Part shown: piece after piece, positions 1 through 43,798 of the stretch
How positions within the stretch are numbered: position 1 is the first letter of the stretch
Layout: each line of letters begins with the position of its first letter
From: Marsupella aquatica
Lineage: Eukaryota > Plantae > Marchantiophyta
Assembly (NCBI GenBank): GCA_973895155.1
Contig: OZ316892.1
Coordinates: forward strand, 23,879,971 to 23,943,970
DNA: 64,000 bases
Direction of reading: 5' to 3'
Position numbers and translations under genes: made by a program
Notes under the pieces: generated by a model
Seen by the model: only the letters and a program-made list of their open reading frames with translations
The model's database searches: none
What the model was told of the DNA's origin: nothing

Positions 1-789
1 CGACCATGCGCGTGTTAGTATTTTATAATAAAGGTTTAACTTTCAATATTTGTCTGTTTCAGAATGGATCCTACCGGAACTTCAAAGCGGAAAAGAGACT
101 CGTCTAAAGCTGCTTCTCGTAAGAAAACCAAGACAAAAATGACTCCCACGGAGACATCCATACTTGCATATCGAGGAAAGTCAATCAGAGAGAGAACAAC
201 GGAGACAAAGAGTATCCATCTCTTCGAATCGACTGAGATATCCAATTTTGGAATAGTCATTCGCAATGGGGCTGTCCGTCTTGTGGTGGCAAGAAATGAT
301 AAAGCTACAGTTTTGGAGAGATCAAAAATTCTTGGGTGTTTCTTTGAGAAGAACATGAAAGTTAAAAAGTGTACAGAGGGATTGGTTTTGCTAGTCAGCG
401 ACAACCAGAAGGAAGACAAAATAAGCATTTGTTTGGATCGAACGCAATATGTAACCTTCAATCAGCCCAGAATCGATGATCTACTAGGTGCAAGGCACGC
501 CTTGGAAAAGGTTACTAGTGTGGATATCCTTCCGATCTAGAGGGATCAACGGGAGATTTGATTTGTCAATACATTATTGACGTACTTGAGTTCCAGAGAG
601 TTCCTTTCAACCAGGGATTTTTCTTGGGAAAGGCCCCGCTAGTGAGCAAGGTTGAAGTATACTCGGTGGAGAATCTTCCGAAATTAATTACCTCAGCGAA
701 TGTCGGGGCTCTGTTTGATTCTTTCCTCAAAGAATATAGTGCTGTGAATATATTTAACAGCAAGTCATTTTTTGTTGAGACATCACGTT

Positions 790-1217
790 GTCATCTTGCA
801 CCGGACCACATCAAGTGCCGAGAGTGGAATCAGGATTACACAGATAGGCTAAAGAATTCACTCCTCTCTCATTCGGCTATAAAGTTTGAGAAGCGATGCT
901 GCTTTTTAGTCCCTGTGAAGTGGGTTCAGTCGGAGGCCGACAGAGATCCTGACTACAATGGGGCGCCCTACGATTCATCGCCAAAGGAGGAGGACATTAT
1001 GACCAGTCATTTCTGGATACTCGAAGGCCAGCACACAATAATGGCATACAAATTGCTGAGAGAGGACGACAAAGTCAGCCAAGTTGTACGAGACGCTTGC
1101 GGTACTGTAGAAGCTGTAATGTTTTGGGCAACGCTCAACAACGACAATAATGTTCATTTGATGGGATTATCGAAAGCTCTGAACCACTGTCATCAAACAT
1201 CAATGGAAGAAGGATAG
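790..1217 (+). pseudogene. ParB/sulfiredoxin-like domain
   Basis: CREWNQDYTDRLKNSL...FLVPV...HFWILEGQHTIMAYKLL fits the ParB/Srx pattern R..v..L..S...y.iidGqHR..A, with T in place of the conserved R. Confidence 0.6.
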
Positions 1218-2199
1218 TTTCTCACCATTGTACGACAGTGTCGTAATATCTAGAACTCATTTGGGCGGCCTGGATCACATTATCGTCATCCAAATTGGAA
1301 GGTATATAAATAACCCTCTTTGATCACATTATCGTTTAAACTGTTGTCACGCGAACGGTCACGTCAAGCTTAAAATTGTCATGTTTCCATTGTTTTTCAG
1401 GTATTTATGAGAGCTACGAGTTTTGTTTGCCCATGGGCTCAAATGGGGAAGAACAAAATGATGAAATTTGGAGAATTGGCTCCATTTCTCTTTACAATGG
1501 AGGACGAAACATTCAAGAAGTGGATGGAGGTCTACGAACTATCAAGGACAGGAGAGCTTGTAATTTACAACAGAATTTTACAGAGGGACGCCGTCAAAAT
1601 TGCGGATAATCCATGTGCTTATCATCTTCTGAAGAAGACGTTCCATTCTTGTCAAGGGTGCTCAGACTCGGTTCTTTGAAAGGCAATGGAATATATGTTG
1701 AGCGAAAGACTGTCTATACTCAAAAACCGAAGCATCAAAGTGAAATCTGGGAAGGCGAGGAAGTCCTCTGAGGCTCCAGTGTTGTCAACGACCAGCATGA
1801 GTTTGGAGCAATTATGTATAAAGAAGAAGACAAAAGTTGAGTTTGAGATTTTATTATTGAGTAAACTCAACGGGGATACATCCACCCGGACGGAGCTGAA
1901 AAGTCTGACAGATTCAGCGCAAAAATTGCGGGTCAACAAAATGATTGATCGCTTTAAGCTCGACAAGATGGTGCTGAAGCAGTTGAGAGATGCGTTGAGT
2001 GGTTATCTGAAGAAGTGTTTAAATGTAAATATTAGTAATGATATTTTGTTGAAGGAGATCGACCCGATATTCTACAGGGTGGTGGAAGGAATACAGAAAT
2101 CAGTTGATAGTCAAGGAAACCAACTAGTGCGGCCGATCGGTGAGAGGCTGAAATTGCGATCCCTATAGGATATACAAACTGTTGGGTTTGCAGACTATA

Positions 2200-2830
2200 T
2201 CATACGTGAAGACAAGAACCTTGCAAGCTTGATTTATTTTGATCCCTGTCCGCCAAATTGCTCATTCTATGAGGGGTTATTTTGTGCTACTAGCAAGATA
2301 GGGGCAAAACCACACCATGTGGTTATTATTGTAGCCTCTCCCGTTGAGTCTTACTTAATCAAACGGGAATTAGGGAAGTACACACACTACGTTGTTGTAG
2401 ATAGCCATTATATTCAGAAGTGGCCGAAGGAGAAGAAGCTTATTGTGACCTACGCTTTTCACAGCTTGGCCTTCAGCACAGTGGGCGATCCACAAGCCCT
2501 CGAGTTCCAATTGGTCTCCAAATATCAGATTGAGAAGATAGCCAATTTTGAAGAGAGCAGCGAGTTCGCGACACCTTCCCTAGAAAAGATACTTCCATTC
2601 TTTGAAAGTATTGTTAGTCAATTCGTCCAATGTGGGGAATGGGCTATATGCTTCGGTGAGGGAACGAACTTGATCCAGTGCTTAATGGTAAGTTTTGAGA
2701 TTTATATTTTGGGGTTTCGATTTAAAGATTATTTAGATTATTATACTCTCAATTAATATTGTGAACTAATTTTGGCTCTTTTTACAGGATGCTGGATCCA
2801 ATGTAAAATATTATTGCCCTGTGGCAACGC
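2200..2830 (+). pseudogene. Degenerate beta-class N6A/N4C DNA methyltransferase-like domain
   Basis: LIYFDPCP (motif IV-like, cf. LIYIDPPY) followed ~110 aa later by TPSLEKILPFFESIVSQFVQCGEWAICFGEGT (motif X/I-like, cf. PTQKP..L.ERII..SS..GD.VLDPF.GSGT). The motif order is that of the beta class. Confidence 0.4.
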
Positions 2831-3499
2831 ATAGGGAGTTGTCTTGTTTCTTGCAACACACCACGGCGACAATTGATACAACGCTGTCATTAATTGACCC
2901 AGTATGGGCTAGTATAGAAAAATGTATAGATAAATTAATGAAGTACCGTCCATCCGTAACTGCTCTCAGGGCTGATGTTTTGGATGTCCTCCACGAACAA
3001 GATATCCCTGATAATATTTGTAATCAATTATTGCAAGAGTATTCACTCTCTGAAGATTTCGATCGATTGTACATTCGACCAACGGAGTACCCTAGTGGGC
3101 CAATCCAAGGTAAGTTACTTTTGAAACCTCTTACTTTTTATTGCGTCACGCGAACATGCGCGTGGACATTCATAACATTTCTTTTCACGCGAATATGCGC
3201 GTGAGTCATTCTTATCAAATGATCTGATTTTATTCAGATCAAGTCGACTGCGGCTTCAATGTTGAGGATGTAGGGAGCAATGGTGATGCGGATGGTGACG
3301 CGGAAGGTGACGCGGATGGGGATGTCAATGACCAAGATCCAGAGTGGATGACCGATACGCAGAACGACGTCGGAGATTCCAACAATAGAGCAGATGAAGA
3401 GAGTGACGGAGAGGAGATGAAGGACGCTGAGGAAGAGGACGAGGAGATGGAGGGTTCTGAGGACGCTAAGGACTCTGATGAAGAGGCCACACAGGAGCC

Positions 3500-4140
3500 T
3501 CGACATGAGGTGGACCGAGAGGAGGCGGCCCGGCTGGAGGAGGCCCGGCAGGAGGCAGCCCGGTAGGAGGAGCTTCAAAAGAAGGATGCAGCCCGGCAAA
3601 AGAAGCTTCAAAAGGAGGCAGCCCGGCAGGAGGAGGCCAGAGAGGAGGCGGCCTGGCAGGAGGCGCTTCAAAAGAAGGAGGCGGCCCGACAGGAGGCAGC
3701 CCGGCAAGAGGAGCTTCAAAAGAAGGAGGCGGCCCGGCAGGAGGAGGCGTCCCGACAAGAGGCGGCCCGGCAAGAGGAGCTTCAAAAGAAGGAGGCTAAG
3801 AAGAAAAAGGCAGCAGCTAGAAAAGCAACTGCCGCGAAGAAGAAGGAGAAAGCCCAGGCTGAGAAAGCCCAGGCTAAGAAAGCGGAGGCTGAGAAAGCGG
3901 AGGCGGAGGCTGAGAAAGCCCAGGCTGAGAAAGCGCAGGCTGAGAAAGCGGAGGCCGAGAAAGCCCAGGCTGAGAAAGCCCAGGCTGAGAAAGCGCAGGC
4001 TGAGAAAGCGGAGACCGAGAAAGCCCAGGCTGAGAAAGCCCAGGCGGAGAAAGCCCAAGCGGAGAAAGCCCAAGCGGAGAAATCGGAGGCCGAGAATGCG
4101 GAGGCTAAGAACGCGGAGGCTGAGAACGCGGAGGCTGCAA
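3500..4140 (+). repeat. Coding low-complexity repeats (EAARQEELQKK units; 15-bp GAGAAAGCCCAGGCT = EKAQA units)
   Basis: Tandem arrays visible directly in the sequence. Confidence 0.95.
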
Positions 4141-5156
4141 GAGTCCTTTTAGTGACAGAGGGAAATAGGGCCAAGGCGGAGAGTGTGGCGGTTGAGAGGC
4201 TGCTGGCCGAGAGGATGGCGGACGAGACCGCAAGACCGGAGAGGGTGGAGGCGGAGAAGTTGGAGGCAGAAAAGGTCGATTCCGCAAGACTGGAGAGAGA
4301 AGAAGCCGCAAGACTGGAGGCAGCGAGGAAGGAGGCCGAGAGGGCCAAGGATCTTTTGCTTATTCCTGAGGCACAATGTCTACCAAAAATAAGGCTAAAT
4401 TTGAAGAAGCCTTCTTCACCTCAGTTGCAGTTAAGAAGAAAATATTAGACTATTTTCTTCGACCGGAGTTTGAATTTAACAATCCACCCTTAAGTACGGT
4501 CTCATTGGATGATTGGAATAAATATTCACCGGAGCAGCTCCGAGTCCAGGCAGTCCTTGCTTTGCAATATTGGAAGGGTCTTTTGATTACCGAGGAGAAG
4601 ACTGCCACTGCATCCAGAATGGAGACAATCATCAATAATGTCCGCTTTTCCGAGAATCGAGTGCAAGACCTGAGAACGTTTTTGGCACCAGACTTGGCTC
4701 AAGTCGTTAAGAGACTAACAGCTGACTTGACACGACCGGGTTTGTGGTCTCGACCTCGATATATTGCAGAGGTCACTCACGTAGAAATTGTGGCACCGGA
4801 TATTTTGGAATCGGATTCCCAGATTGTGGAATATTTGAATCAAATGCCACAACCATTTGAAGGTCTTCCCGCCATGTCACTCCAACCTTCGCAAACTGGT
4901 CCGGTGGAGCGATCACTGCGGTCTCGAGGAGGGCTGAAGGATGTTGTTGCGATTGAGGCACCCAAGAGATCAGCTGCAAAAAGGCCGGATCCACCCAATC
5001 CAAAGGTCATTTGCAAGCTATAAGCTTAAAGTTTCTATTATAGACGTCATTATTTTATTATTGATTTGTTATTGTTTCTGTTTTCTGAGGTATAACCCTT
5101 AGGCTACAACCTCAGTACGCTATTTGAAGGCGTACTGAAATCTCTATTTTTTGCAG

Positions 5157-5850
5157 TTTTTTGAAAATTTGGCTAGTCGAATAGATCAATGCCTTGATCC
5201 TTCTAAGGATATGGAAGAGCTATTGACCAAGTTCTTACAACACTCGATCAAGAGGAAACATATGATGTGTCTAAGACCGCGTGAGTTGCTCACCAATGAT
5301 ATAATTAACGCTTATTTGAGTTTTCTTGAACTGATTCTCGATAGAGTTGGAAACTCAGACCTTGTCAAATTCTTCCAAACACACCATTTTGAGCTTCTCT
5401 CCATGGATCCTACCATTTTTGACGAGGAGAGAGTAGCTTGGACAAAGGAGTTTTCGCTAAAAATCAGTGAATACGACAAACTGGTCTTTCCAGTACACAA
5501 TGCTTTTAAGAACATTGGTCATTGGTAGTCTTGTATCCGAAGGAGAAACGGCTGGAGTACCTAGATTCTTTAGTTCATAATCGACAAAATCCCGGGGTGC
5601 TAGATATTGTTGGGAAGTACTACACCGACAAAATTGGCTGGAGAACTGGTGTCAACTTGGATCTCTCAGGTTGGGAACGGATATATCGGAATGATATTCC
5701 TCACCAGAGTGACGGCCACAATTGTGGTGTGTTTATCTTGAGATACGCCAAATGCTTGTGTCAAGGAAACAAAATTAATTTTGTCACGGATCAAATTGAG
5801 AAATTCCGTAGGGAGATAGTCTTGTCGTTATTTGACATGGACTTTCGCAA
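5157..5850 (+). pseudogene. Ulp1/SENP-family (C48) SUMO protease domain, frameshifted
   Basis: LRPRELLTNDIINAYL, FPVH..GHW, EYLDSL and PHQSDGHNCGVFILRYA give the H-D-Q-C catalytic set. Frameshift near 5525. Confidence 0.9.
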
Positions 5851-6199
5851 GCCAACGTCCGCAAGTAACCTAGTTACCGGGATCCGTGCTACTATGATTG
5901 ACATTTCTGACGAAATTCCAGCACTGAATGACCGTCTTGTACAAGTAATACACTTCATTTCAGTGTCTCTCTTTGTAGTCACGCGACCGTTCGCGTTATA
6001 AACTTATTTTCATTTCTTAATGTTTTACAAAAGCCTATCCCGAAACCCCCTGATCGAGTATCGAAGGCACCAGTCCGAAAGTCCGGTGATCGTCCAAAGG
6101 CGGAAAACAAACAGACCGTTCTAGTACGTTCTCCAAACCCTGCGACACAAAAATCATAGGTACAGATGGCGTCTAATCCATTGGCAAAGAAGTCACCGG

Positions 6200-8090
6200 T
6201 TCAGAAGAGACTTGTAATTTTTGATCTGAATCGGGTACTTATCTGGTCAGAGAAGATTAGCCCTGGGATGCCCATTCGGTCAAGGGGTGTGAGACAGATG
6301 CACAAGGTTATCTATCCAAGGCCTGATTTAATGGAATTTCTTGAGAAGGTGGCAGATCTATACGACATTGCGATCTGGTCGTGCATGTTCAAACGGAATA
6401 TTCTATCTTGTGTAAGGCTGATACTTTGACCCGAAGTTTTGAAACGTATTAAATTTATATGGGGACAAGAATCAACTCGACTTATTGGGAAGAATAATAA
6501 TGACATCCCCTTATTTGTCAAATGTCTCTCCGACATTGCCGCCGATATTAAAGATTAAAACATTGAGAATGTCATTCTTATCGATGACGTTGCATATAAG
6601 ACGAGCCTTAATGACTTCTATTCATCGCTGTATCCCGATGCATATTCTGGGCTCGATGATGACCTATTTTTTAGAAAGAAACTATATCCATATCTATGCG
6701 ACATGTCAATTGACAAGTTGACATTCTGCAAGCTCCTTAGTGGATATGGGATTCCAACGTTCTCTCAAGAAAATCTTGAGAAAGATTATATTGATAAGAC
6801 GAATCTTTGGAGGAGAAATATGATCATTCGTAATCAGAGGAATAAAAGACCATTTAGAAAAGTTTGACGAATTTATGAAATACTTATCTACCGAAAAAGA
6901 CCGTGCTATAGAAGCCCGGGATAAGTCCAATAAGTAAACATTTATTGTTTATTATCAATTATTATTTATAATTTGATTGAAATTGAACTTTATATTTTGG
7001 GAGTGACGCGCCCGGTCACGTGGTTGTTTGCAATTGCATAATATGAGAATTGAATTGTTCATTTACAGGTGTCTAAGTGGAGCAGGTCGCGTCAACTTCT
7101 AGTTTTAGGACTGGAAAACTTCCTATGCTCTGTTTCAAAATATACTCCTCAGCTCAACTCGACACCCGAAATTCGTATCGGATCTCTATGTGTCGTTCCG
7201 AGGCTGCATCTTCATGATCTTATAAAATTCTGTTATGATCATTTTGATGTGATGGTCTGATCTATTCTCGACGATAAACTGGTTTATCAGATACTTTCAG
7301 AAGTGTTGTCAAGCATCAACCTGTCGTAGCTGATATATGTGTTCACGCGGGATCATTGCTGGAATCTTGGTTATGTGAAGAAAAATTATAAGACTGTTGT
7401 CTTCAAATCTATCGAGAGACTACGTGATATGTTTCAAGATTATCGACCAGAGAATATAATCCAGATTGATGCCTGTCCTTCCCATACATGCCAAACAGCT
7501 GTATGCGGATTATTGTTCGCTAAGTTGTTTCAAGGATTCTTGAGATTCTATTTTGAGAATTTCAATGTAGGGATCTGGTCCTCTCTTGGGAAGAACCTTT
7601 TAGATCAGATTTTAGCATCTATTTTTACTGCGATGGAAATGGACTCATTTAAGTATATTTGGGATTAGTCTCATTGTTACTTATGCGATAGGGTGACATC
7701 AAATAAGCGGATATTTTTGAAGTGTTTTGAGAAGGTTGGAATTTATACGAAGGCGTACCTGCAGAAAAATATAATGCTTATCAAATCCGATGCATTTCAT
7801 GCTTGTTTAGATCCTGTTGTTGGATCATTATTTCCGCCCAAATATTTTGGGTCGGTCGATGACAGTTTTCTGATTAACTTGCTGATTCCATATCTTAGCA
7901 AGCTAGCCAACTCTTGTGAGCCGCTTGTCATTGCCAATGGAAGAGATTATCCAGATTGGTCAGTTAAATCTATTTTTAGAGATTATGATTATAATCATAC
8001 TCTATGGGAAGACCCTGTGATTCAGAGGCATGAAGATAGATATCTAGTAGAGCAATTTAACAGACGCTTCCAAAATAATAGTCGGCATGA
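6200..8090 (+). pseudogene. Three tandem FCP1/NIF-like HAD phosphatase domains, increasingly degenerate
   Basis: KRLVIFDLNRVL...IYPRPDLMEFL...DIAIWS...IWGQE...ENVILIDD. Second copy QLLVLGLENFL...PRLHLHDLI...FKSIERL...ENIIQIDACP. Third copy NVGIWSS...YIWD...FLKCFEKV...NIMLIKSD. Confidence 0.75.
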
Positions 8091-8561
8091 GATCAGATTA
8101 ATTTGTATTGTCATTCTAGAAACTATTTGTAAACTCCTTATATACTGGTTATCATATATAAAGGATCTCAAAGATTTATTTCTCTATTATTATTATTTGC
8201 GTGAGCATGTCTCTTGGTCCCGTCAAGTTGGATTGGTTAAAATGTGACGTTGCAGTCATTTTCAAGGTTTCACACGCAGCCACGCATCATGCCGCCCCCT
8301 TTTTATTAAAATAATAATATTTAGTGATTTTCGGAATTTCCAAAGTTTGGTTTTCCTTAAGTTGGGGTTAATAGGGTCTTTTAAATTCAATTTTGAGACT
8401 TATAAGAACATTAGGGTCTTTTTAATCCAATTTTTAGATATTCCAAGAATATTCCAACTTTATAAGGGTTAAAAAATAATTTTTTTCTTACATTTTAGGG
8501 GGTCCGAGGCCTAAAAATGTCGCAGGCGATGGGGAGGTCCCCATATAGTGAGACCCCCGAG

Positions 8562-8633
8562 TCTTTGACTTGGACTCCAGCTTGGATCGAAGCTGGGAAG
8601 GTGTAAGCACATATTAAGCATCACATCCAAAAA
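8562..8633 (-). pseudogene. 72-bp copia integrase C-terminal (SH3-like) remnant between elements A and B
   Basis: Reverse strand reads FGCDA-YVLTPSQLRSKLESKSK (with a small indel), continuing ...TDYSHLRIFG from 24854. Confidence 0.85.
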
Positions 8634-13025: not shown

Positions 13026-13612
13026 AGTGGTCGTACGGACGTGGTTGTACGGCCCCTTGACTTTTCAACTTTTTTGTGAGGGGTCACTCACGGGCTTGTT
13101 GGAAAGAGCTCGCGGAGCTGATTCCAACAAGAGGTGGCGCTCCTCAAACGGAGCCAGGATGAGCAAGTTAGGGCCCGACGAAGTTGGGTTTATGGGATAC
13201 TGAAATGGCCATAACTTGGTCGTCCGATGTTTGTTTCAAGAGCGGTTGAGTGATTCATGATCAGGAGGAGGAGGGCTATCCAGGGGTGAACTCAGAAATG
13301 CAAGTGGAAGGGTGTCTAGTTTCGGCCATTGTGGGGTTCCTTGCAATTTCACGGTTCACGGAGTAACGTTGGGGCGCCGTCGAAGGCACCATCGGCCCCA
13401 TTTTTAGTTTAGGGTTTAGAAGCATGTGTGCGCCGCATGGTTTTAGTTTAGGGGTTTCTTGGTAAAGGGTTTAGCGGCGTTGCTAGTGTAAGCCGCCATC
13501 GTTGTGGCTCCGAAAGGGGTGCTTTGGTGTGTTTTTTTTGGTATTTAGGGGGAAAGCCCCGGAGTAGTAAGGGGGGGAACTCAGCGTAGTGCTTTGATGC
13601 TTTTGAGTACTT

Positions 13613-13950
13613 CAATCTATTCATTAAAAGTGAATTATTATTCAATTTATGAACATTTGGGTAACAAAAAGTGTACATTTGGCTTTCAAAAGTGTACAAT
13701 TGGACCAGAAATAAAGATGCTTGCCATCAAATGTACCACCATGTTCATCCTTTGTAAATGAACTAGGATGAGACTCCTTCTAGTAAAGATCATTTTTGCA
13801 CCCTCAAGTTTACAATTGATCATTTAGGTGTAGAGTAGTATACTATATTGTACCTTTTGGGGTTAAAAAGTGTACATTTGGAGACCAAAAAGTGAACATT
13901 TAGAGGCCTAAAAGTGAACAAAATAAAATACACTTTTAATGAATAGAGTG
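13613..13950. mobile_element. Small AT-rich MITE-like element nested in the TG..CA insert
   Basis: 17-bp inverted repeat TCTATTCATTAAAAGTG (13616-13632) / CACTTTTAATGAATAGA (13931-13947), with internal AAAAGTGTACATTT repeats. No clear TSD. Confidence 0.6.
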
Positions 13951-14532
13951 ATCGCCCGACTAGCTTTTGTGAGTAGCGCACCGATTAGGTGAAGTTCAAG
14001 CCAGAGTAGTGAGGTGGAGAACGTAGCACTTGTCTCAGGGAGGCAGGAGTTGGGCAGACGGCAGGAGGCCGGGTTGTCCTTGCATGTGTTACGGGAAACA
14101 CCAAGAGATATGGATTTGGCTTGAGTTCCAATATTTTGTGTGTCACTTGTTGTTGCTTGTGTTGTTTGTTTTCCTCCCCTAGTGCATGTGGTCAGTTTCG
14201 TTGTGGAAACATTTGCCCTTGTCACTAGTGTTCAAACCTTATTGTAAACGTTTGTATGCTTGCCCATGAAAGGGGGGTGGTGACAACACTCACCCGGTGG
14301 GCATGAGATGTAGATGGTAGGACCAGTCCCTTGGACTTGATCAAAAACGGAGAGACCAGTTGGTAGACTTGATCAAAAAGTACACTTCCGGGAGCGGAAT
14401 CAAACATACTCATCCTTAGGTGTGAAAATCCTCCAAATAGCGTCCCCTCCACGACCCCGTAATACGATACCAACGGTTTAAGCGAAGAAAAGTACAGTTT
14501 GCACGTATTAATCGTTGGATAGGCAAGTGACA

Positions 14533-17500
14533 GGGTTTATCCACCAAGTTATTGAAGTATATACTCTGCTTCACTCGGGTCAGCCGGTCCTTACTGAGAT
14601 GAGGGTTCCCAACAAGCTGACTTACAAACGTACTTTTGTAGATCTCTCATCCATTATGAGTGACAGTTGGACACACTTCCTGTATGGGCGCCCCATAAAC
14701 CAAGTTTGAATACATTATATTCATAGTAGCCTCCAATTCAGCCCCAGCCACCTCTAAATCTGGGTCTACCTCCCTATGGACCTCCCTCTCCTCGCCAGTA
14801 GGAATGACAGTAGGGATGATACCTGCCTGTAAGCTTGGGCCAGACATTGGGGCTGACATTGGTGTAGATGATGATGCAGTTCCAAGTACATTTTCAGTGG
14901 AGGTGGTTCTAGGGGTGGACTCAAGAGGTAGAGTATCCCGCACATCTACCAAGGTGTCCACATTAATATTACACCAGCCACCAAACTTGGTGCCTTTCTC
15001 CTCAACTTTCCATGGTGAATTCCACCATAGTTTGTTGTTGGCAGATGTTGAAGGATTCATTTGCAATTCAGTGGCTGCAGTTTGAGCCAACTTGAACCCC
15101 TCTTGCAAAGCTAGGACGACATCTGCATCAGTCTCAATCCCTATGTAATCTGATTGGTCTGCCTCTATATCAGTCCCCTCTTTTGCAGGATGAAGAGTCA
15201 TCCAAATGCTCTTATGCTTTTTATGGCTCTGTCCAACACCCATCATTCCCTCTGCCAGATCCATTGCAGCCAACCTATTAAGGGAGGTTGCACACTCTAT
15301 TAATTCTGCTATATCATAGTTCCGCTCATTACCCCGCATACCCTCTACCTTGGAAAAAAACTGTTCACAAGCATCTGACCCGGTCAGATGTAATGGCACT
15401 GGCAGATGACGGAAATTAGTCCTAAATTGAATTATCAAGAAGACTACAAAATGGACTAACATCTGTATGTCCAGGAAAGTCTGCATAGGGATGCAGCTCT
15501 TGGTAAAAGTTATACTCTGTGTGTTACCTCCCACTGCATGATTACCATGGAAGCACCACAGACGCCACAACCTGAAAAAGAAACCCACTTTCCCACATAG
15601 GACAATTCTCTCTCGCAAAGTGAGTCAGGTATTCATAAATATATCCAAGTAATCAGCACATATCCCTGTATAAACCTCAGTCCCAAGTGCCAGCTCTACC
15701 TTTGCATCCTTGCGCAATCGTAGCATCTTTAGCATGGAACTCACTTTGCGGCTACACAGCCTTTGTGCACTTGCCCAATTTTTCCTGTCTGCACGTCTTA
15801 TGTCCTCCTCATTAAGACCATGCTCTTCATGCTCATATAAACGGTAGACATGTCTCAAGTGACTCAAGTTCGCCACCTGCGACCCTAATTTTAGGATCCG
15901 GGCAGTAGAATCCAATGGATTAACTAGCTTCTTCCCATTGTGGATAAAATCCTGATCATGTAGCCCTGTTGCATGCCTCAATGTTCCATCATTGGTCATG
16001 GTGTGAGTCAGTTTCCAACCTTCCCACATCAGGTTTGGTGCCCTTGGCCCTGGTACCCCTCTTCCACTGTAGTCCTCAAGCATGAGTTTTCGTCTTTGCG
16101 AATCCCCATCACTTGCGTGGCCTAGTAGAGGCCCCCACCTTCTCTAGACAGTGGGTGGTCCACATTGAATCCATGTCACTCCATTGTCGCCTGACCCAAG
16201 GACTGTCAAACGTATTACAGGTTGACGTGCCCAGTACAGGCAAGCGAGGGAACCCCACAGCAAGAGGATTCACTATCACACATCTTGCAAGGTGCCCTAC
16301 CCTTGAATTATCAAAAGCACCTATAATGTTGTTGAAGCCAACTTCTCCCTACCACACCTCTATTTGCAATCCAGTCTTACATTCATGGTCAGTTTTGCTT
16401 CCACAAAACCCAAGAAGTGTATCATCTTTAGGCAACCATCTGCAAAGAATGCAAGATGTCACTACTTTAGTGTATGTTCAAAGAACTCCACGTACTTGAA
16501 CTAGAGAAGTCATTGAATAGCTTTGACAAATTTTCATAAGTTGTTGAAGGCAAATTACGTGACTGTTCGCTTTGACATAGGTCTCGTCCTCTGCCAGAAA
16601 GTAGGGAATTGGGCCTGATATATCCAGGCGGTTTTTTATTTCAGAGTAGATCTTTGCAATAAACTTGAATTGAGATTCATGGATCCCTGCTCTGAACACT
16701 GGCATACCTCTCCTATCTCGTTGTAGGGTGTTTAAACTAGGCCCTATTCTGTTAGTGGCAAGGCAGTCAACTACACGACGCCCACCATGCAAGAACAATG
16801 TTTGGCATAAAAGCTTTGTTCTTGGCTTAATTATATCTATAACCTTCCTTCTCTTTGTTCAAGTTCGAAGTTATATCTGACAACATATCCCATAGAGCAC
16901 CCCTTCCACCAAAAGCACCCCTTTTGTGTGCTAAAACTATTGATTGGCAAGATTTCAAGACAGATTCCTTGTTTGGACCCTGATAGTTGAGGCAAACCTC
17001 CCTCACACTTGGAATTGAGGACTTAAACATAAGCAATTTATGGCTGAGGAATCTCTGTAACTTTCTCTCTCTGCAAAGAGTATTCCTATACACTTTAGCT
17101 TGCCTCTGAATCTCAAAAACGTTGAGGTACCCTAGGCGCCTACCCTTCCCAGTCCCTCTCAAACCCCGTTTCTCAAGGGCTTTATCTTCTCTTGATACCC
17201 TTTGTCTAAAGTCATCTAATGTTTTTATGGAAAAACATTTTGAGCATGTCAAATCTTCAAAACCACCCCCTTCTTGTGAAATTCGCCTACATTCGGAATG
17301 TCTGAATAAACCCATGATCACACAAGTCTATTGAGTGGACAAACACTACACCTCTACCCTGACCAGAGGCTCTGCAAACCATTCCCCTCTACTTTGACTT
17401 GGTCATTCAAGACTCCCTTGATAGGCCTGGATTCTGAACCATATTGTAACTCATCCCACCATAGACCCCAACACAAAAGTGAGAAGTTATCAATAATACC

Positions 17501-18710
17501 TCTGTCATTGTCTGTTGTAGGCACTCGAGAGGAACTGCTGGAAGCACCTGCAGCGGACGAACGGCTCAAAAACCCCTGGATTGTCCGTTGTTTGACATCC
17601 CTCCCATCCACAGTTCGGGGTCTTCCAGGACGTCCTGACATGACAGGCTCATTTCTTGCAGGCCTCTGACTTTTTGTCACGTAATCAAGATGACTCAACC
17701 CACTACAATGAGCGTTGAGGTTGGACTCCAAGTTCCGTTGCTTTGGTATCAATGACATGTGGCATAGACAAAAATTGCAGAAAAGCTTCAACCTCTGCAG
17801 CTCCACCGGGTCCTTCTGGACATCACCCACAACAGTAAATTATCTTGACCGACACTCTGGGACTCATTGACCTTTGCAATTATGCTCAGATGCTGGTCTA
17901 GTATGGCTCTATCGCTCATACTAGTAGCAAGAGCCCTTCTTGAAATCTCCCGTGGGTCCACAGTTTCCCCCTGTTTGATGCAACACAGGCTGTATGCTTG
18001 GATGAGCGCAAATGCTTGCTCTTGTAGTTTGTGAAAGCATTGTTGATGAATATTTTATCCATCAATCCTCCCTTTGGCCCCTCCACCCGAGTGTCACACT
18101 CACAACACTCAAGATGTCCCCTTGGTAGGTTGTCTTTGTCCCAAGTTTTGACCTTCCATTTATGGTCACCACATTTAATAGACTCCATGTAAGCCAACAA
18201 CTTCTCCACAGATGATGTCCATACTCTCTTAAGATCATTGGACATCACTTCAGACAGAAAGGTGACTTGTAGATCAGGCTCAGGCTCAAGCTCAGGCTCG
18301 GGCTCAGATGATGGAGCCTCAGAATCTCGACTAGGGCCCAATTTGGGTTCGTCCATGATCGGAGAAGTGGCACGCTCGTCACTCTCAGTCCAGGATGGCC
18401 CATTTGAGGCATTGCTACTTCAGAGGACTTGATGCAGTCCTACCAACACATTCTGAATGGGAGCATCACTACCATTCACGGGGATGATAATGATCTTCCC
18501 CCCAAAATCCTCAATGAGATTGAGTTTCTCCCATTTTCTCTGCATTCTTGTATTGAGACTGACATCAATAAAGTCAAAGTCAAAGTCAAACTGTGACTCC
18601 AACTTTAGTCTGACATCAGCAAAATATTTGCCTATGAGGTAGCTATATGATGACACTGGCTTCCGCTCCCCACCTTTGGAGTCTACTTGAAATAGTGTGG
18701 TGGGCGGCAT
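14533..18710 (-). pseudogene. P-element/THAP9-like DDE transposase, main part (stops, frameshifts, at least one intron ~16442-16558)
   Basis: GPSLNTL; FLAEDETYVK (D1); GHASDGDSQRRKLM (D2, ~16110); QDFIHNGKKLVN (DxxH motif); DRKNWASAQRLCSRKV (P-type insertion region); LTGSDACEQFFSKV (E). N-terminal C2H2-like fingers CCECD..HLRSSKH and CNFC..HCSGLSH. Confidence 0.8.
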
Positions 18711-18899: not shown

Positions 18900-21800
18900 A
18901 GAAGCTAGCAGAGGGATAAGATTGACAGAAAGAAGTCAGAGGGATAACATGGATAGAACAACAGAGTATTCTAGCCCAACAGACGTTTGGAGACCGCCTC
19001 CACTGGAACAATCCCACGAGGGCCTTGCCCCATCCCGACCATTTCTCGTGGTGATTGGCTTTGCAAGGTCCATTGTTGCTTTCTCCGAGAATTTTGGGTG
19101 GGAAGGGACGTACCCTTTGCATGCAAGGATTCCAATTTTGGCGTAAGCACAAGAGAGCATGGGATCCGCACATGACCATTTAAGCTTGTCCCATTCAAAG
19201 CTTGTCCCGGTCCCAGTTAATGTGCTAGGTCCATGTACGGTCGGGGCCAGGCCCACACTCCAATCCCTCTCCTTCAATAGTCAGTTGGGCTTTGCAGAGG
19301 GTCAATTGCAAGCTTGAGGGGGGCAAAAAGGATATCCAATTTCTCCACCAAAAGGATTCTAGTCCTTCCCAATCTACAAGGGCTGGACAAGGTGTTACAC
19401 CAAATGGCTAGGATTAGTTTGTTGAGATTGGATGATGAGATCTTGCATGCCAAGTCTTTGGAAGTGTGTCCAGGCTTTTAGGAAGTCCCAATCTTCTTGG
19501 AAGTGTGCACAACAATTTTGGAAGTGTGTCAAACCTTTATGGAAGTGGTGTTCAACTAAATCTTTATGATCTTTGAGTCCTTTTTCTCTCCTTTTTGAGC
19601 TAATCCTTTTTGCATCCTTTTGCCCCCCTCAATCTTGCAATTGACCAGAGTCACTATTGATACCAGCAAAGAAGCTGAGACTAGACCACCCAAGCCCTAT
19701 TACCTAACAGGCTCTAAGCACTCAACGCCCCCTATATACACTTTTTGGGCAACCTGCTTCAAAATTAATAGAGTGCTAGACTGCCAGCGACCAAATCTAG
19801 CAGTCTCCAATGGGGGCATTACTTCCCCATGGTCTCTGATTAATTTGATGGGCCCTGCAAACAAGCTAGTTCTAAATCTACAGCGGAAAGTGACAAAGCT
19901 GAAATGATAACTTACCTGAGAACACACAATGCCCTGTACATTATCCTTTGATAACAGAAATGCAAAATACCAGGAAAGAAAGCACTAGTAGGGAAAAATA
20001 TTGCTTGGCTGTACCTTGGAGTTCAAATGGCAGATCAGTACAAGAGAGTGCTCGCACGTAGAGAGAGCACGACGCAAATGCCCTGAAAAACATCATAGCA
20101 TTTCAGAACCAGGAAACAACATAAACATATATAATGCAAGCTTGTTACTTTGCAAGTTCTTAAAACTGTACATCGATCTATCCAGTACATAGATCAATCA
20201 TTAAACCAAGCCTTACCTTTTGGTTTGCTAGATAGGCCGACTCATCATCCACGGGTCCATCAACTTTTGCAATTATCCTAGGACGTAAAAACACCAGAGT
20301 TAGTTTTAAGTATTGGCAAGTCCATCAGCTCCACAATTTTTATGGCATGCCTTTCAGATACAATGATAGGATTGTCATCATAGTTTCTGGCATAAGAAAC
20401 TCAGACTGCCTAAACCAAGGATGACATAAGAATTGATGAGACTGATGAACACATGATAAGTTAATTCCAAAATGAGTGTTGGATCAACACCATACACTTT
20501 TTACAAAATGACCTATCCATGAGGTCGTGTAAGCCTAAATTCCATCTAGACCACAAAACGCTGCACCTAATGACATACCTAGGGACCGTCATTAAGTCCT
20601 AACACAAAGGGGTCAGTGTTCCAAAGCTGGCACACTTTCCACTAACGCTTTTTAGCAAAGACATCATTGTCCTTCACATCTGCATCAGGATCTACATCGC
20701 ATGAAGGACATTTTGCATCTAAAGCATGCATGCAACCTGCAGCAACAGTGTACTGTACGCCTTCTACCTCACGCGTGAAAAGAATGGACACAGGGTTCAT
20801 ATACTTTTCCCACATAGACACCCATCTCATCCTAGGGGGAGGAGCAGCCCCAAAAAGGATGGTAACGGGTAAATCCGTTCGAAACAACCCTAAGGCCTTC
20901 AATTTACAACGAAGCCTTATTGCCTTCTCGTAAAGAAGACCTACTGATTGGCTTCAGGTGATTACCATTGCTGTACCCCTGTGTTACCTTGGCGACAGAA
21001 GACTCTTTGACTCTAAACTTCAATCACAACTTGCACAACACCTAGTCCAGTCAGCTACCTGCACGCAAAAGATATATTTGAGTCATTAAACCCAAAATTA
21101 AAGCACGTACAATAAATCAATCAGCTACAGATGAAGATAATATGGAAGACCAAAAACCAGTACCAAGAGAATGTAAATGAAATACCAACCTATTGTCTCA
21201 CGACTGACTTTTCCAAAATATCAAGGCTAGCTCGCGCTGCTGTGTAATCCTCAACCAAGAACTCTTTTGTGGCAAGCAATGCATACCAGATCAGTATGAT
21301 TTAGATTAGCAACTACTGATTTCAACAATGCAGTAGAAAAGTTGAAGCAAATTCTCTAGCAATAGCATAAACTAAGCTAAGCCAAACAAATCAGGCAAAC
21401 ACTACAACTTTGCGGAAACAGCCAAGGAAAAGAATGTACCTTCACTTCCACCTTTCGGGCTTCTTGACACTTTTGGCAGGATGACTGTGCCCCAACGCCT
21501 GAATGCATAGGAATGCTTGGACGATGACCTTAGTCTGCAATGTCCTTCACCCCCGATGCCTCGCGCGGTGCCTGGAAAAGACAACAATCCATTGCCTTCA
21601 GATTGCAGACAAACACAAATTTTAACTACTTGCACCGTCGAAGCAATCGATGCAAAAAAAAGCTCTACAAGTGCGGCCCATTAATGAAGTTATCTATTGT
21701 TGACTGTAAATGTCCAATTCTAATTCTAGTACTGCTAACCTTTGCTTCCACCTTGTTGTCTTGTTGTTGCTCGCCTCCTATTGATGGAGTCCGCAAGCGG

Positions 21801-23400
21801 GTCCGCAAGGCCTTCACATAAAAATTGGATGGATCCCTAAACCATAGTCACACAAACAAATATAGTAAGCCCCAAGTGGGGCCCCAAGACCTTAAAAAGG
21901 CGCAACATATATGGACACAACATCGGGCACAACATGCCTATGTGCATAGGTCGGGGGTGCTCACCTTCACTTTGGTCCACCTTCTTGCCTTGTGAGTGCC
22001 CCCTCCAATCACTGTCTCCAAAATTGAATGCTGCAGCTCGCAGCTGCAAGTCTGCATCACAATGTACAGACCTCGGTACAGACCTAATCAGGATGGATAA
22101 TCTCAAACTGATTTCAGCATTAGATTAAAAAAGGTCGGATCGTAGCTCTAGCAAAACATTGAAGCACAACTGTTTGGAAAGATGAATTAACTGAAGGAAA
22201 ATAGTAAACCTTCAATCGCACCTTCGGGCCTTGTTGCGGCCTCGTCCCTCCAATAAACTGAGCCTGAATGCTGAAAAACAGAACAATCCCACAGATCACC
22301 TCACTCTACAATATTGGGGCTCCCCATTGCCCAAAACAAACAGCAATCCGGCCCTACGTACAATATTATCTACCCATAGGATTGAAGTGCTTGCAAAACA
22401 AGAAGCATTGATTCAATCTCTTCAAAACAATTGCTACACATGCAATCCCTCTCCTGAAGTGTGTGGCCCAATAATTTTACAGTGTGGTCCAAAGGTCGGA
22501 GGTGCTCACCTACCCACCTTCTTGTCTACTTTCCGCCCCTTCTCCAATTCATGGAGCCCGCAATGCCAAGAAAAAACCTGAATGGACCCCTACAACATAG
22601 ATTGAGAGAAATTCACAGTTAGCCCAAGACCTTACAAATGCCAGACATGGACAAATGTAAATGTTGAAAGTTCAGGGGTATTTACCTATGCTTCCACCAT
22701 TCTTGTCCCGGGTTCTCATCTTGTTGCCGCTCCCCCTCCAATAGATATATGGAGCCCGCAATGCCAATAAAACTGAATCAATCCCTCAACCAGACTGAGA
22801 AAGATTTAAAGTTTGTGGAAACCCTTAAAATGCCAAAGAGATGGACAAGAAATGCAAATGTGCATAGGTTGGTGGTGCTCACCTTCACGTCCACCTTCTC
22901 GCGTTGTGAGTGCTTCCCTCTGATTGACGTCGCCCCCAACACCCCAAGGAAAACGTACTGACATTAGGGTTGTAGATGCTGAATGCAAGAACCGGCCAGA
23001 AAAATTAGTCCATTCAACCTTTGTGCAACAAAATTGGATTGAAAGGCCGAGGTTGGCCTCCGCTACAGCATATGATAGCGGACAACAGTGAGAACGAGTC
23101 CGAGCAACATCTAGAAATTCAAAAGCTGAAAGTGGACTTGGATGGAGTACAGCGCACCTATCGGACTTGGATGGAGTACAGCGCACCATTGCTTGTCGTA
23201 GCTCAAGATGCTCACCTTGTCTTATTGATGTCCACTCAAATCAATGGAGCCACCAATGCTCAAAGCAACAACGATCAATCCCTGCGCCCAAACGCTGACA
23301 AACCAATTTTAAGTTTGGCCCAAGAACTTAAAAGTATGAGACTAGAAGAAAAATGCGAATGTGAATAGGTCCACAGATCACCTTAACTTTGGCCTTCTTG
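18900..23400 (-). pseudogene. Second, uncharacterised decayed multi-exon gene within element B
   Basis: Minus-strand exon-like fragments (e.g. 19700-19915, 20590-21058, 21190-21290) bounded by splice-like sites. No family recognised. Confidence 0.35.
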
Positions 23401-24271
23401 TCTTGTTGCCGTCCACACCGTTCTCACCGACACAAGGCCCGAAGACAGCCGACCCCACACAAACCCGCAAGTGATTAGAGCTCTGGAGGGACAGAGCGAT
23501 GGCGGGAGCGATGGTGGACAAGCAAAGAGCGATGGTGGACGAGCAAAGAGCAATGGTGGACCAGTGACAAGCGGTGGTGGACGAGCGATGGTGGACAAGC
23601 TCTCACGCAGGGCAACAAGCAACAAGCAGAGCGACGAGCGGAGCGATCGAAGGACCAACGAGCGGAGCGATGAGCAATGGCGGGCGACAGAGTGAACCAG
23701 GCAAGGGTCGACAACAGAGTGACCAGGAATCAGGACGCAAATGCAGTGTCGAGTGAGGGCAAAAACTTCTAATGGACACGGATTGACTCATTGGAGGGTG
23801 GAGATCTTCCCTCCCTCGGATCCAATGGCCAGCACTTTGCATTAAAGTGCTTTCTAAAACCCTAAGCCCTAATAGCCCGCCCAAAGGGCACCGTACTAAT
23901 GTAAACCCCCCCTAAATCCCCGAACCCCTGCCAATTCAAACTCCCAACCCTGACTTAAACTTGACCACACATATACTTGCCAAGGTTACAATAGGCAAGT
24001 ATTTACATTTCAATATTCCTCCATCCAATTAGGTGTTGACAAGTGGGCCACTAATACCATGACGCGTGGCACCGGGGAAAAAACAACCCTTCCAGAAATT
24101 TAAGATGTATGCTATTTCATAAGTACCTATTTACTTATATTTGAGTTTAGGAATAGAATTGCGGGTTGGGGTCTTCTAAGTCAATTATAATTATTAGTTC
24201 AAAACGAATAAAATCCACCCTTCGAGCGTTCGCATGTCCTACCCGTATTAGTTAAGACTGAGGGCCCAGGG

Positions 24272-24815
24272 AACATAGTGTCAAATCCAGGTAGTGATGA
24301 CTGGATTCTAGATAGTGCATGTACTTTTCATATTTGCTCTAGGAGAGATTTTTTCAGTTCTTACACGGTTTCCAATGGATCAGTGTTGATGGGAAATGGA
24401 ATCCCATGTCAAGTTGTTGGACTTGGATCTGTAAGATTTCAAATGTTTGATGGTGCTGTGAGAACATTGAGGAATGTGAGACATATTCCCAACATGATGA
24501 AAAATCTCATTTCCCTTGGAGTTTTAGAAGCAAATGGCTATCAGTGGAGTTCTGCTAATGGTGTCCTTCAGGTTTCAACTGGTACTAAAGTTGTATTGAA
24601 GGGAAAGAGACATAGCAATCTATACATTTTGGATGGTAGTGTAGTTTTTGATGAAGCCAATGTAACCTTATCTCATGAGGAGACGGCCCGGCTGTGGCAC
24701 TTCCGTTTGGGCCACATGAGTGAAAAAGGTTTGGCTATTCTTCAGAGAAAAGAATTATTTTCTAATTTGCAATCTTATACTAATAATCTTAGAATATTGT
24801 AAGTTGGAATTTTGC
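24272..24815 (+). pseudogene. Inverted copia protease/GAG-pre-integrase fragment captured inside the end of element B
   Basis: DDWILDSACTFH...LWHFRLGHMSEKG. Near-identical in reverse complement to ~25440-25957. Lies between two copies of the element B right end (ending 24271 and 24853). Confidence 0.9.
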
Positions 24816-24853
24816 ACGTCCTACCCGTATTAGTTAAGACTGAGGACCCAGGG

Positions 24854-26700: not shown

Positions 26701-27029
26701 CTCCCTCTTCTTCCCCACTACCGACAGCTCTGGTAGTAGTACAGATTCTTCCACTACACACCGCATCGGTGATCGTACCGGTGTCACTAGTTCCTCCTCA
26801 AACGGTAGCAACTCCTTCTCTGACTCTCCGTCTAAACGTCGCAATCCTAAAGCTCCACCGACACCAATTCTTCCAGTATTCTCCGAGTCACTCATATGAA
26901 ACAATCACAAAAAAACATCTTTTTTCAAAACTTTTCATAAAACTCAAAAACTCAACACCGCTGTGTAGCCCACGAAGCTAGGAGTCCAAACATTGAAAAA
27001 CAAAAAATCAAAACCAAAATCCGTTGAGA

Positions 27030-27360
27030 GGCCACAGGCCGTGGGTTGTGGGTGCGAGCCAAGCTTCCAAGATGATCCCGCACGGACCATGGGTCGTAGG
27101 CTATCCGCCCCCAAACTCAATAATAATCAAGACCCCTCACAGACCATGGGTCGTGGGTACATGCCTACCCAGGCATACCCACATCACTCACGAACCGTGG
27201 GTTGGGGGATATCTTCTCACTCAAATCAAAACCTCATGGACCGTGAGCTCAATACTCACTCAAGCCAAGACCTCACCACCTATGGGTCGTGAGCTCACTA
27301 CTCACTCAAGCCAAGACCTCACCACTTGTGGATCGTGAGCTCACTACTCACTCAAGCCAA
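27030..27360. repeat. Tandem repeats (~49-bp units) in the copia 5' UTR
   Basis: CGTGAGCTCACTACTCACTCAAGCCAAGACCTCACCAC repeated ~3x, plus degenerate CCATGGGTCGTGG units. Confidence 0.85.
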
Positions 27361-28128: not shown

Positions 28129-28130
28129 CT

Positions 28131-43501: not shown

Positions 43502-43798
43502 CTCGGGGGTTTCACTTCCACAAAAATGGCATATCACGTGCGACGAAGGATAGGGTCATTTTATTGGTTCTAAAGGAAAACTTAAGAATTTTTGTAGAAG
43601 AACAATAGGGTCTTTTAAATTCAATTTTGAGACTTATAAGAATATTAGGGTCTTTTTAATCCAATTTTTAGAATATTCCAAAAATATTCCAACTTTATAG
43701 GAGTTAAAAAATTAAAAAAAATTCTTACATTTTAGGGGGTCCGAGGCCTAAAAACGTCGCAGGCGATGGGGAGGTCCCCATATAGTGAGACCCCCGAG
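43502..43798. mobile_element. 297-bp non-autonomous derivative (MITE) of element A
   Basis: TIRs CTCGGGGGTTTCAC / GTGAGACCCCCGAG (1 mismatch), perfect 8-bp TSD AGTACTTA (43494-43501, 43799-43806). The right ~190 bp match 8372-8561. Confidence 0.93.

What the first reader, a model, noticed from the sequence alone, without database searches (positions are those of the whole stretch)
1..7022. Palindrome ACGCG-N6-CRCGT recurs in the introns of the ParB-containing gene
Seen in otherwise AT-rich, unrelated introns: GTCACGCGAACGGTCACGT (1346), GTCACGCGAACATGCGCGT (3145), TCACGCGAATATGCGCGT (3185), GTCACGCGACCGTTCGCGT (5978), GTGACGCGCCCGGTCACGT (7003), and a truncated CGACCATGCGCGT at base 1. Arms and spacing are conserved while the spacer varies, and CpGs persist in a decaying element. 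Inference: a dimeric protein-binding site spread along the element, e.g. a parS-like loading site for its own ParB-like protein or a self-recognition motif analogous to VANC target motifs in VANDAL introns.
Basis: partly seen in the sequence, partly recalled or inferred. Interest (0 to 1): 0.8.

Follow-up and report, generated by a model that had tools for sequence, protein, structure and literature searches.

The report
Transposon's private palindromes in its introns
A broken, multi-copy plant jumping gene carries six copies of one 16-letter DNA palindrome, all inside the predicted introns of its own ParB-like gene, and that gene's protein likely docks on them to recognise and protect copies of its own family, an idea already proposed for algal transposons.

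Summary
Observation confirmed. Five full sites and one truncated site sit at the stated places; none lies in the other 55 kb (shuffles: mean 0.02). All six are in predicted introns (5 of 7 introns) of one decayed gene of a multi-copy DNA transposon that ends at 8561. Correction: the 'N6' is not free. All six spacers fit MMYRKK, so the site is a 16-bp degenerate palindrome of two half-sites, ACGYG-M-M-Y. The halves vary independently (9 of 18 inner pairs complementary, no G-U), which favours a dimeric protein reading duplex DNA over an RNA hairpin. The gene has a ParB/sulfiredoxin fold lacking ParB's arginine patch, an unconfirmed methylase-like part, Ulp1 and two NIF domains. Other copies have duplicated a site in tandem, as VANC targets do. 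'CpGs persist' is weak: the CpGs decay in other copies. Best reading: self-recognition sites for the element's own protein, probably anti-silencing. Binding is untested. The idea is published for red and brown algae, and this scan has already noted the same design on several other elements of this genome. New variant of a known kind.

The parts
1..13 (.). Truncated palindrome site 0 (last 13 of 16 bp), in the predicted intron ending at AG 61-62, upstream of ATG 64
   Evidence: Sequence; half-site and MMYRKK fit
63..1301 (+). Predicted exon 1: N-terminal domain of unknown type (64-about 521), then a ParB/sulfiredoxin-fold domain (519-1214); frameshift near 521 and premature stops
   Evidence: Homologues P0001-P0020; model pLDDT 76; best matches ParB, Noc, PadC, KorB; indel at 521 in family contigs
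1349..1364 (.). Palindrome site 1, in predicted intron 1302-1400; tandemly duplicated in some other copies
   Evidence: joints 1372->1339 and 1377->1347
1401..2687 (+). Predicted exon 2: helical region, then a methylase-like segment (about 2169-2687) with altered motifs (DPCP, CFGEG); two premature stops
   Evidence: 50% identical homologue P0022; methylase homology not confirmed
3148..3163 (.). Palindrome site 2, in predicted intron 3110-3237
3187..3202 (.). Palindrome site 3, second unit of a 39-bp local duplication in the same intron
3238..5004 (+). Predicted exon 4: acidic tract and EAARQE/AEKAQ coiled-coil-like repeats; 3' boundary uncertain
5157..5944 (+). Predicted exon 5: Ulp1/C48 SUMO-protease domain, frameshifted near 5504-5507
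   Evidence: Pfam PF02902 E 3.3e-12, 47.1 bits against cut-off 20.7; indels
5981..5996 (.). Palindrome site 4, in predicted intron 5945-6030 (acceptor reads AA in this copy)
   Evidence: family G at 5944 completes a typical donor context
6031..6933 (+). Predicted exon 6: NIF/FCP1-like phosphatase domain reading DLNRV at the catalytic-motif position
   Evidence: Pfam PF03031 E 9.2e-11; translation
7006..7021 (.). Palindrome site 5, in predicted intron 6934-7068
   Evidence: a 1-base deletion at 6844 in family contigs carries the frame to the donor
7069..8247 (+). Predicted exon 7: further degenerate NIF-like domain(s)
   Evidence: Pfam PF03031 E 1.3e-9; 25% identical to the exon-6 domain, E 2e-14
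8370..8561 (+). 3' terminal region and terminal inverted repeat of the transposon (ends ...GTGAGACCCCCGAG)
   Evidence: Shared with the MITE at 43502-43798; varied loose ends behind 8561 in 4 of 4 runs
43502..43798 (+). 297-bp non-autonomous relative (MITE) with the same 3' end, an imperfect 14-bp TIR and the 8-bp target duplication AGTACTTA; carries no palindrome site

Best explanation
The six palindromes are family-specific sites inside the predicted introns of the transposon's own ParB-like gene, and they likely serve as docking sites for a dimer of that gene's protein. Each subunit would read one 8-bp half-site (ACGYG-M-M-Y) in duplex DNA. Binding would bring the protein's Ulp1 SUMO-protease and its degenerate methylase-like and phosphatase-like domains onto copies of this family only, most likely to counter host silencing, as VANC/KIU does in VANDAL elements. 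Sites sit mid-intron, at least 34 nt from either splice site, where they cost neither coding sequence nor splicing, and they multiply by local duplication. Shown: the sites, their confinement to the element, the independent variation of the halves, the multi-copy element, the Ulp1 and NIF domains and the tandem duplication of sites. Predicted: the ParB fold and the introns. Inferred: dimer binding and any anti-silencing effect.
For: 5 full sites in 8.6 kb and 0 in the other 55.4 kb; shuffle mean 0.02. All 6 sites fall in the 8.9% of the element that is intronic. 11 of 11 half-sites fit ACGYG-M-M-Y. Only 9 of 18 inner pairs are complementary and none of the 9 mismatches is G-U, as expected for independent half-sites. 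A/C and G/T interchange is the amino/keto degeneracy expected of major-groove readout (established knowledge, recalled). The site length equals the 16-bp consensus parS and NBS (PMC7383237, passages). The exon-1 model matches PadC (Z 8.6, rmsd 2.8, 99 aligned) and KorB (Z 8.3, rmsd 2.6, 94 aligned), and ParB/Srx-fold entries fill ranks 1-8; Foldseek ranks ParB and Noc first (E 6.5e-3 and 8.9e-3). Site 1 is tandemly duplicated in contigs of two studies, like VANC targets (PMC5735166, passages). The same idea is proposed for algal ParB cargo genes.
Against: No binding, expression or methylation data. The ParB arginine patch is absent. No helix-turn-helix could be identified: the exon-2 model had mean pLDDT 32. 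The fold matches are middling (Z 8.3-8.6; no Foldseek E below 0.001). 2 of 7 introns lack a site. Across close copies the two sites tested are no more conserved than shared ancestry could explain: 0 of 16 non-CpG site positions vary, against about 9 of 94 flanking intron positions (counted by hand), and site CpGs are mutated in 1-12% of summed depth. A 10-bp deletion removes part of site 3 in about 8% of depth in two runs. The 5' part of the element, which may hold other DNA-binding genes such as the transposase, lies outside the window.
Confidence: 0.55

Rival explanations
1. Same protein and same sites, but the job is autoregulation: the ParB-like protein binds operators inside its own gene and damps its own transcription, in the manner of KorB.
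For: All known sites lie within the ParB gene's own transcription unit. KorB is the second-best fold match (Z 8.3). The MITE, which has no gene, has no site.
Against: Sites spread over 7 kb instead of clustering at a promoter. A fused Ulp1 domain with apparently intact His/Asp/Cys fits the KIU anti-silencing precedent better (PMC13317346, passages).
Confidence: 0.15
2. Self-marking: the exon-2 domain is an active amino-methyltransferase that writes 6mA or 4mC in or near the palindrome.
For: The order of motifs resembles beta-class enzymes: a D-P after a hydrophobic strand, then a later G-x-G-like loop. The Ectocarpus Sola1-1_Ec32 protein pairs ParB with such a methylase. The degenerate positions alternate A and C, the two bases these enzymes modify (inference).
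Against: The catalytic DPPY/F motif reads DPCP here and DCSV in the homologue, and the DPFxGxG motif reads CFGEG and CFSEG. There is no PF01555 hit, and profile-profile probability is 1.4%.
Confidence: 0.1
3. The sites are intronic enhancers for a host transcription factor such as CAMTA (VCGCGB) or a G-box factor.
For: 4 of 6 sites contain VCGCGB and site 5 also contains a G-box (consensus from PMC4890006, passages).
Against: 2 of 6 sites (1349, 5981) contain no VCGCGB. A single 6-bp box does not explain the fixed 16-bp dyad or the MMY constraint. The dyad is absent from 55 kb of host genes and other elements that hold 19 VCGCGB matches.
Confidence: 0.07
4. Neutral relics: one palindromic insertion or footprint was copied around the element by local duplication and has no function.
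For: Local duplication of sites does occur. The five full sites share one orientation of their better-conserved GT(C/G) flank. Conservation across close copies is not above background.
Against: Flanks of different introns are unrelated while the 16-bp core is kept. Variation is restricted to two-letter classes that include A/C transversions, which methylation decay does not produce. No site lies within 34 nt of a splice site.
Confidence: 0.08
5. RNA hairpins in the pre-mRNA that aid splicing or processing.
For: Sites 2, 3 and 4 fold as local hairpins (z -2.1 to -3.6).
Against: Sites 1 and 5 do not (z +0.8 and -0.35). The arm variant in those two gives a C-A mismatch. Inner mismatches are A-G, C-T and C-A, never G-U. 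No Rfam match in 1-8600.
Confidence: 0.05

Closest known systems
Plavaka accessory gene PAG3 of the red alga Bostrychia (bioRxiv 10.1101/2025.02.11.637652; passages read)
   Same: A transposon cargo gene with an N-terminal ParB-like domain, inverted repeats in the same element, and the authors' proposal that the protein binds and modifies its own transposon.
   Different: There the repeats form tandem arrays next to the gene and the effector is a 2OG oxygenase. Here single sites are dispersed inside the gene's own introns, and the fused parts are methylase-like, Ulp1 and NIF. The host here is a land plant (inferred from neighbouring genes).
Accessory gene of Sola1-1_Ec32, Ectocarpus (PMC12477816; passages and supplement rows read)
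   Same: ParB-like domain plus N4/N6 methylase domain on a large cut-and-paste transposon, proposed to bind and modify its own sequence.
   Different: No palindromes are mentioned in the main text ('palindrom' 0 hits). That element has a 4-bp TSD and a 282-bp TIR, against an 8-bp TSD (from the MITE relative) and a 14-bp TIR here. The methylase motifs here are degenerate, and Ulp1 and NIF domains are added.
VANDAL/VANC and KIU anti-silencing system of Arabidopsis (PMC5735166 passages; review PMC13317346 passages)
   Same: Family-specific short motifs in introns and other non-coding parts that multiply by tandem duplication; KIU genes also carry Ulp1.
   Different: VANC motifs are 8-9-bp non-palindromic words (YAGTATTAY, AGTTGTCC/AGTTGTAC). 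VANDALs are non-TIR MULEs. The putative reader here has a ParB fold. Hypomethylation is shown there and untested here.
Bacterial ParB-parS, Noc-NBS and KorB (PMC7383237 and PMC7053999; passages read)
   Same: A 16-bp palindrome read as two half-sites by a dimer, and an N-terminal ParB/Srx fold.
   Different: The GERRxR patch needed for the CTP response is replaced by G-Q-H-T-I-M. No helix-turn-helix was confirmed and no ParA is seen. The site sequence is unrelated to parS or NBS.

Membership tests
ParB-parS (CTP clamp) | ParB/sulfiredoxin N-terminal fold | tested here: met
   VIA-align Z 8.6 to PadC and 8.3 to KorB; ranks 1-8 are all of this fold, next unrelated rows Z 2.6 or less; Foldseek ParB E 6.5e-3, probability 1.00. 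Middling scores, on a predicted model.
ParB-parS (CTP clamp) | Arginine patch GERRxR required for the CTP response | tested here: not met
   The strand-to-helix turn reads G170-Q-H-T-I-M, invariant in 5 of 5 aligned sequences; motif from PMC7053999. The equivalence of position is inferred from the secondary structure of the model.
ParB-parS (CTP clamp) | Helix-turn-helix DNA-binding domain after the N-terminal domain | tested here: inconclusive
   Exon-2 model has mean pLDDT 32 and no meaningful match.
ParB-parS (CTP clamp) | 16-bp palindromic cognate site | tested here: met
   16-bp degenerate palindrome in 5 full copies and 1 cut copy; parS and NBS consensus.
ParB-parS (CTP clamp) | Specific binding and spreading from the site; ParA partner | not testable with these tools
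   Needs EMSA or ChIP; the element's 5' part is outside the window and no whole genome is held.
VANDAL/VANC anti-silencing | Family-specific motif in non-coding regions, introns included | tested here: met
   6 of 6 sites in predicted introns, 0 elsewhere in 64 kb.
VANDAL/VANC anti-silencing | Motifs accumulate by tandem repeat formation | tested here: met
   39-bp duplicated unit in intron 3110-3237; joints that repeat the site-1 unit in X1 and X2, one contig each.
VANDAL/VANC anti-silencing | Non-TIR Mutator-like host element | tested here: inconclusive
   A short TIR and an 8-bp TSD are inferred from the MITE relative; the transposase is not in the window.
VANDAL/VANC anti-silencing | Protein homologous to VANC | tested here: inconclusive
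   No VANC sequence was compared directly. Pfam found only Ulp1 and NIF above cut-off in the element's pieces, and the N-terminal part has a ParB fold.
VANDAL/VANC anti-silencing | Induces hypomethylation of its own family | not testable with these tools
   No methylome is available. This copy shows CG and CHG decay, so it was methylated at some time.
Beta-class N4C/N6A DNA methyltransferase (PF01555) | Domain homology | tested here: inconclusive
   No Pfam, PHROG or PDB sequence hit; hhalign of shallow profiles (2 against 4 sequences) gave probability 1.4% over 13 columns at the D-P motif.
Beta-class N4C/N6A DNA methyltransferase (PF01555) | Catalytic DPP(Y/F) and SAM-binding DPFxGxG motifs | tested here: not met
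   DPCP and DCSV, CFGEG and CFSEG in the window protein and P0022, against DPPF and DPFxGxG or DSFGGSG in phage enzymes.
Ulp1/C48 SUMO protease | Pfam PF02902 above cut-off, with catalytic His, Asp and Cys | tested here: met
   47.1 bits against 20.7. GHW, YLDS and QSDGHNCG are visible in the translations; the roles of these residues are recalled. The gene is frameshifted in this copy.

The most novel reading that the evidence does not exclude
A land-plant transposon has turned a bacterial ParB-type palindrome reader into a private address system. The protein loads on 16-bp sites hidden in its own introns and spreads along the element, carrying a SUMO protease and a methylase-shaped reader that strip or block silencing marks on its own family only. 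Each family evolves its own palindrome, so these protein-site pairs form a natural library of orthogonal, programmable plant epigenome editors.
Probability: 0.2. Interest if true: 0.85.

Novelty: new variant of a known kind. Interest (0 to 1): 0.5.

Why it matters
[quoted passage not shown] This element supplies a precise candidate site (ACGYG-MMY|RKK-CRCGT) and a candidate reader in one gene, so the proposal becomes testable with one binding assay. If true, it is a second, independently evolved sequence-specific anti-silencing system in land plants, built from bacterial parts, and a source of compact 16-bp targeting modules. The concept is not new, and the scan has already met it on other elements of this genome, which limits the surprise.

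Tried and rejected
No whole genome is held, so genome-wide enrichment and the element's 5' end could not be examined. No RNA holder was listed among 6 runs, which says nothing about expression; the introns stay predicted. Homodimer prediction on homologue P0001 (residues 40-408, two copies) gave no verdict (score 0.00). The exon-2 structure model was unusable (pLDDT 32, 2 sequences). Methylase homology was not reached by Pfam, PHROGs, PDB sequences, tblastn of phages or plasmids, or hhalign. The ESM Atlas gave no answer. Metagenome scans found no related locus (73 candidates, none confirmed) and no terminal repeat (0). A 'longer' protein search with the methylase-like piece found nothing. P0014 was left out of alignments as a repeat-driven false hit, and P0011, P0017 and P0020 were left out of the folding alignment A3. 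Rfam: 0 matches. Transposase-binding subterminal sites were rejected: the sites are internal and absent from the terminal 190 bp and from the MITE. The CpG-persistence argument was rejected: using a rough per-CpG loss of 14% (157 transitions in X1, 9 of 26 classified rows in CG context; only the 40 listed of 782 rows were visible), P is 0.026 if none of 24 CpGs was lost but 0.27 if the two CACGT arms are losses, before any correction for having found the sites because they are intact. The de novo palindrome scan ranks this motif first in its tile (1e-10); one other tile holds an equally strong palindrome, which lies mostly in tandem repeats of an LTR. Literature searches for a land-plant ParB cargo gene with cognate palindromes returned only the two algal papers as relevant. 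Subscription papers, Iyer et al. 2011 and the Bostrychia supplements were not seen and may describe plant cases.


Full report
1. Observation. The quoted strings are at the quoted places. ACGCG-N6-CRCGT matches five loci, 1349, 3148, 3187, 5981 and 7006, against a mean of 0.02 and a maximum of 1 in 100 shuffles. Bases 1-13 are the cut end of a sixth site. One mismatch adds only locus 16557, which is within chance (mean 0.93). A matrix built from the sites scores the five at 24.7-28.8 bits and the next best place in 64 kb at 12.4. A blind scan for spaced palindromes ranks this motif first in the tile 1-8561 (1e-10, uncorrected).

2. The element. The stretch 1-8561 is the 3' part of a multi-copy DNA transposon. 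Its last 190 bp recur at the end of a 297-bp element at 43502-43798, which has an imperfect 14-bp terminal inverted repeat and the 8-bp target duplication AGTACTTA. In 4 of 4 public contig sets laid (3 studies), contigs leave the window sequence behind 8561 into varied flanks, with agreement 0.34-0.54, and thousands of 80-99% similar contigs cover the body in three of the four runs. Contig depth is not a copy number. The 5' end and any transposase lie before base 1, so the superfamily is not named. Neighbouring kinase, LRR and F-box-like frames point to a land plant (inference). Earlier notes of the scan suggest a liverwort, which I did not check.

3. The gene. Reading frames, GT..AG boundaries and AT-rich gaps give seven exons and seven introns (1-62, 1302-1400, 2688-2787, 3110-3237, about 5005-5156, 5945-6030, 6934-7068). 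There is no RNA evidence. Exon 1 has 19 relatives among cluster representatives, one of them a false hit, and one 55% identical relative. Its model (pLDDT 76) matches PadC (Z 8.6) and KorB (Z 8.3), with ParB/sulfiredoxin-fold entries at ranks 1-8, and Foldseek puts ParB and Noc first. So 'ParB-containing' holds at the fold level. The arginine patch GERRxR, which ParB needs to respond to CTP (PMC7053999, passages), reads G-Q-H-T-I-M here and is invariant in 5 of 5 sequences. Exon 2 has one 50% identical relative. Its last third looks like a beta-class amino-methylase with altered motifs, but no search confirmed the homology. Exon 5 encodes Ulp1 (E 3.3e-12), and exons 6 and 7 encode NIF/FCP1-like domains (E 9.2e-11 and 1.3e-9). 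This copy is broken by stops and frameshifts. It differs from the family mostly by transitions (X1: A>G 92, T>C 65 places), and of the 26 such rows that were visible 9 are CG, 9 CHG and 8 CHH, which is the pattern of methylation decay.

4. Anatomy of the site. All six sites lie in the 8.9% of the element that is intronic, in 5 of 7 introns, never closer than 36 nt to a donor or 34 nt to an acceptor. With sites masked, the introns are unrelated (19 of 21 pairs at chance). Within a site the two halves do not co-vary. Of 18 inner pairs 9 are complementary, exactly what independent two-letter choices give, and the mismatches are A-G, C-T and C-A, never G-U. Sites 1 and 5 do not fold better than shuffles, and Rfam has no match. 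This is the pattern of two protein subunits each reading a half-site in duplex DNA. A and C share a major-groove amino group and G and T a keto group (established knowledge, recalled), so M/K degeneracy is what direct readout tolerates. The 16-bp length equals that of consensus parS and NBS, which ParB and Noc dimers read as two half-sites (PMC7383237, passages).

5. Other copies. I could look closely at 2 of 6 sites (3040-3300). The window matches the majority at both. The five positions that vary inside the sites are all CpG transitions, at 1-12% of summed depth, and a 10-bp deletion hits site 3 in about 8% of depth in X1 and X2. None of the 16 non-CpG site positions varies, against about 9 of 94 flanking intron positions; that difference is not significant, and the 80% likeness filter favours close copies. 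So the sites are a family trait, but selection on them is not demonstrated. The claim that CpGs persist is weak: exons of the element are CpG-rich anyway (observed/expected 0.81, against 0.55 in the rest of the window), and the survival test gives P 0.026-0.27 before ascertainment. Sites do multiply locally. Sites 2 and 3 are a 39-bp duplication (22 of 39 bases identical). One contig each in X1 and X2 repeats the unit that holds site 1 (1377->1347, 1372->1339). Contigs in X2 and X3 join 7054 back to 5976, which would place sites 5 and 4 in one intron.

6. Mechanism. Most likely the element's own ParB-like protein binds these sites as a dimer (inferred). That would tether Ulp1 and the degenerate methylase-like and phosphatase-like domains to this family's copies, probably to resist silencing (inferred; 0.55). 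Rivals: autoregulation by the same protein (0.15), active self-methylation (0.10), neutral relic (0.08), host CAMTA or G-box factor (0.07; 4 of 6 sites contain VCGCGB), RNA hairpin (0.05). CTP-driven sliding of the parS type is possible but not favoured, given the missing arginine patch.

7. Known systems. VANC binds short non-palindromic motifs in VANDAL introns and other non-coding parts, and these motifs grow by tandem repetition (PMC5735166, passages); KIU-type genes also carry Ulp1 (PMC13317346, passages). Bostrychia PAG3 has a ParB-like domain beside arrays of inverted repeats and was proposed to bind its own element (10.1101/2025.02.11.637652, passages; supplements not seen). Ectocarpus Sola1-1_Ec32 carries a ParB plus methylase gene with the same proposal (PMC12477816, passages and supplement rows). 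PMC4738411 (passages) describes ParB-HTH methylase fusions in chlorophytes and chytrids. The element therefore works like VANC and like the algal ParB cargo. It fails one defining test for a ParB CTP clamp and one for an active methylase, and VANDAL membership is unproven.

8. Novelty and verdict. The feature is real, well above chance and sharply defined. The concept is in print for algae. My searches found no land-plant report in the held library. The scan's unreviewed notes describe ParB-methylase elements with private palindromes on several other pieces of this genome; they are not independent proof, but they show this is one more member of a recurring design. New variant of a known kind; interest 0.5.

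Noticed in passing
window 43502-43798: 297-bp MITE with an 8-bp TSD (AGTACTTA) that shares the long element's 3' 190 bp; this end is far more abundant in public contigs than the element's body.
   Followed up: partly
window 27973-28557: CTAAC-N4-GTTAG palindrome four times, three of them in 117-bp tandem repeats of what looks like the LTR of the copia-like element at about 24200-28600; probably LTR enhancer repeats.
   Followed up: partly
window 21431-23408: Dispersed direct repeat family around CCACCTT(C/G)TTG, spaced 200-700 bp, all on one strand; reads AAGGTG on the minus strand and may mark repeated splice donors.
   Followed up: no
window 14647-18419 (-): Broken transposase-like frames with a DACEQFFS motif that recalls P/THAP-type transposases (resemblance recalled; no Pfam hit). 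One weak match to the palindrome at 16557 lies inside it and is within chance.
   Followed up: no
window 49493-51722 (-): Broken Mutator transposase (Pfam MULE E 3.5e-14, SWIM); has no copy of the palindrome.
   Followed up: partly
window 24276-25956: 504-bp inverted duplication (95%) of copia pol sequence.
   Followed up: no
window 1272-1335: A 14-bp stretch (GATCACATTATCGT) at the end of exon 1 is repeated at the start of intron 1302-1400, just before site 1.
   Followed up: no
window 13612-13951 and 19300-19646: Two further short elements with 25-29-bp inverted ends, probably MITEs.
   Followed up: no
window 45535-46317: Frame with a strong Bles03 domain match (E 1.4e-19), next to a weak F-box-like frame.
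   Followed up: no
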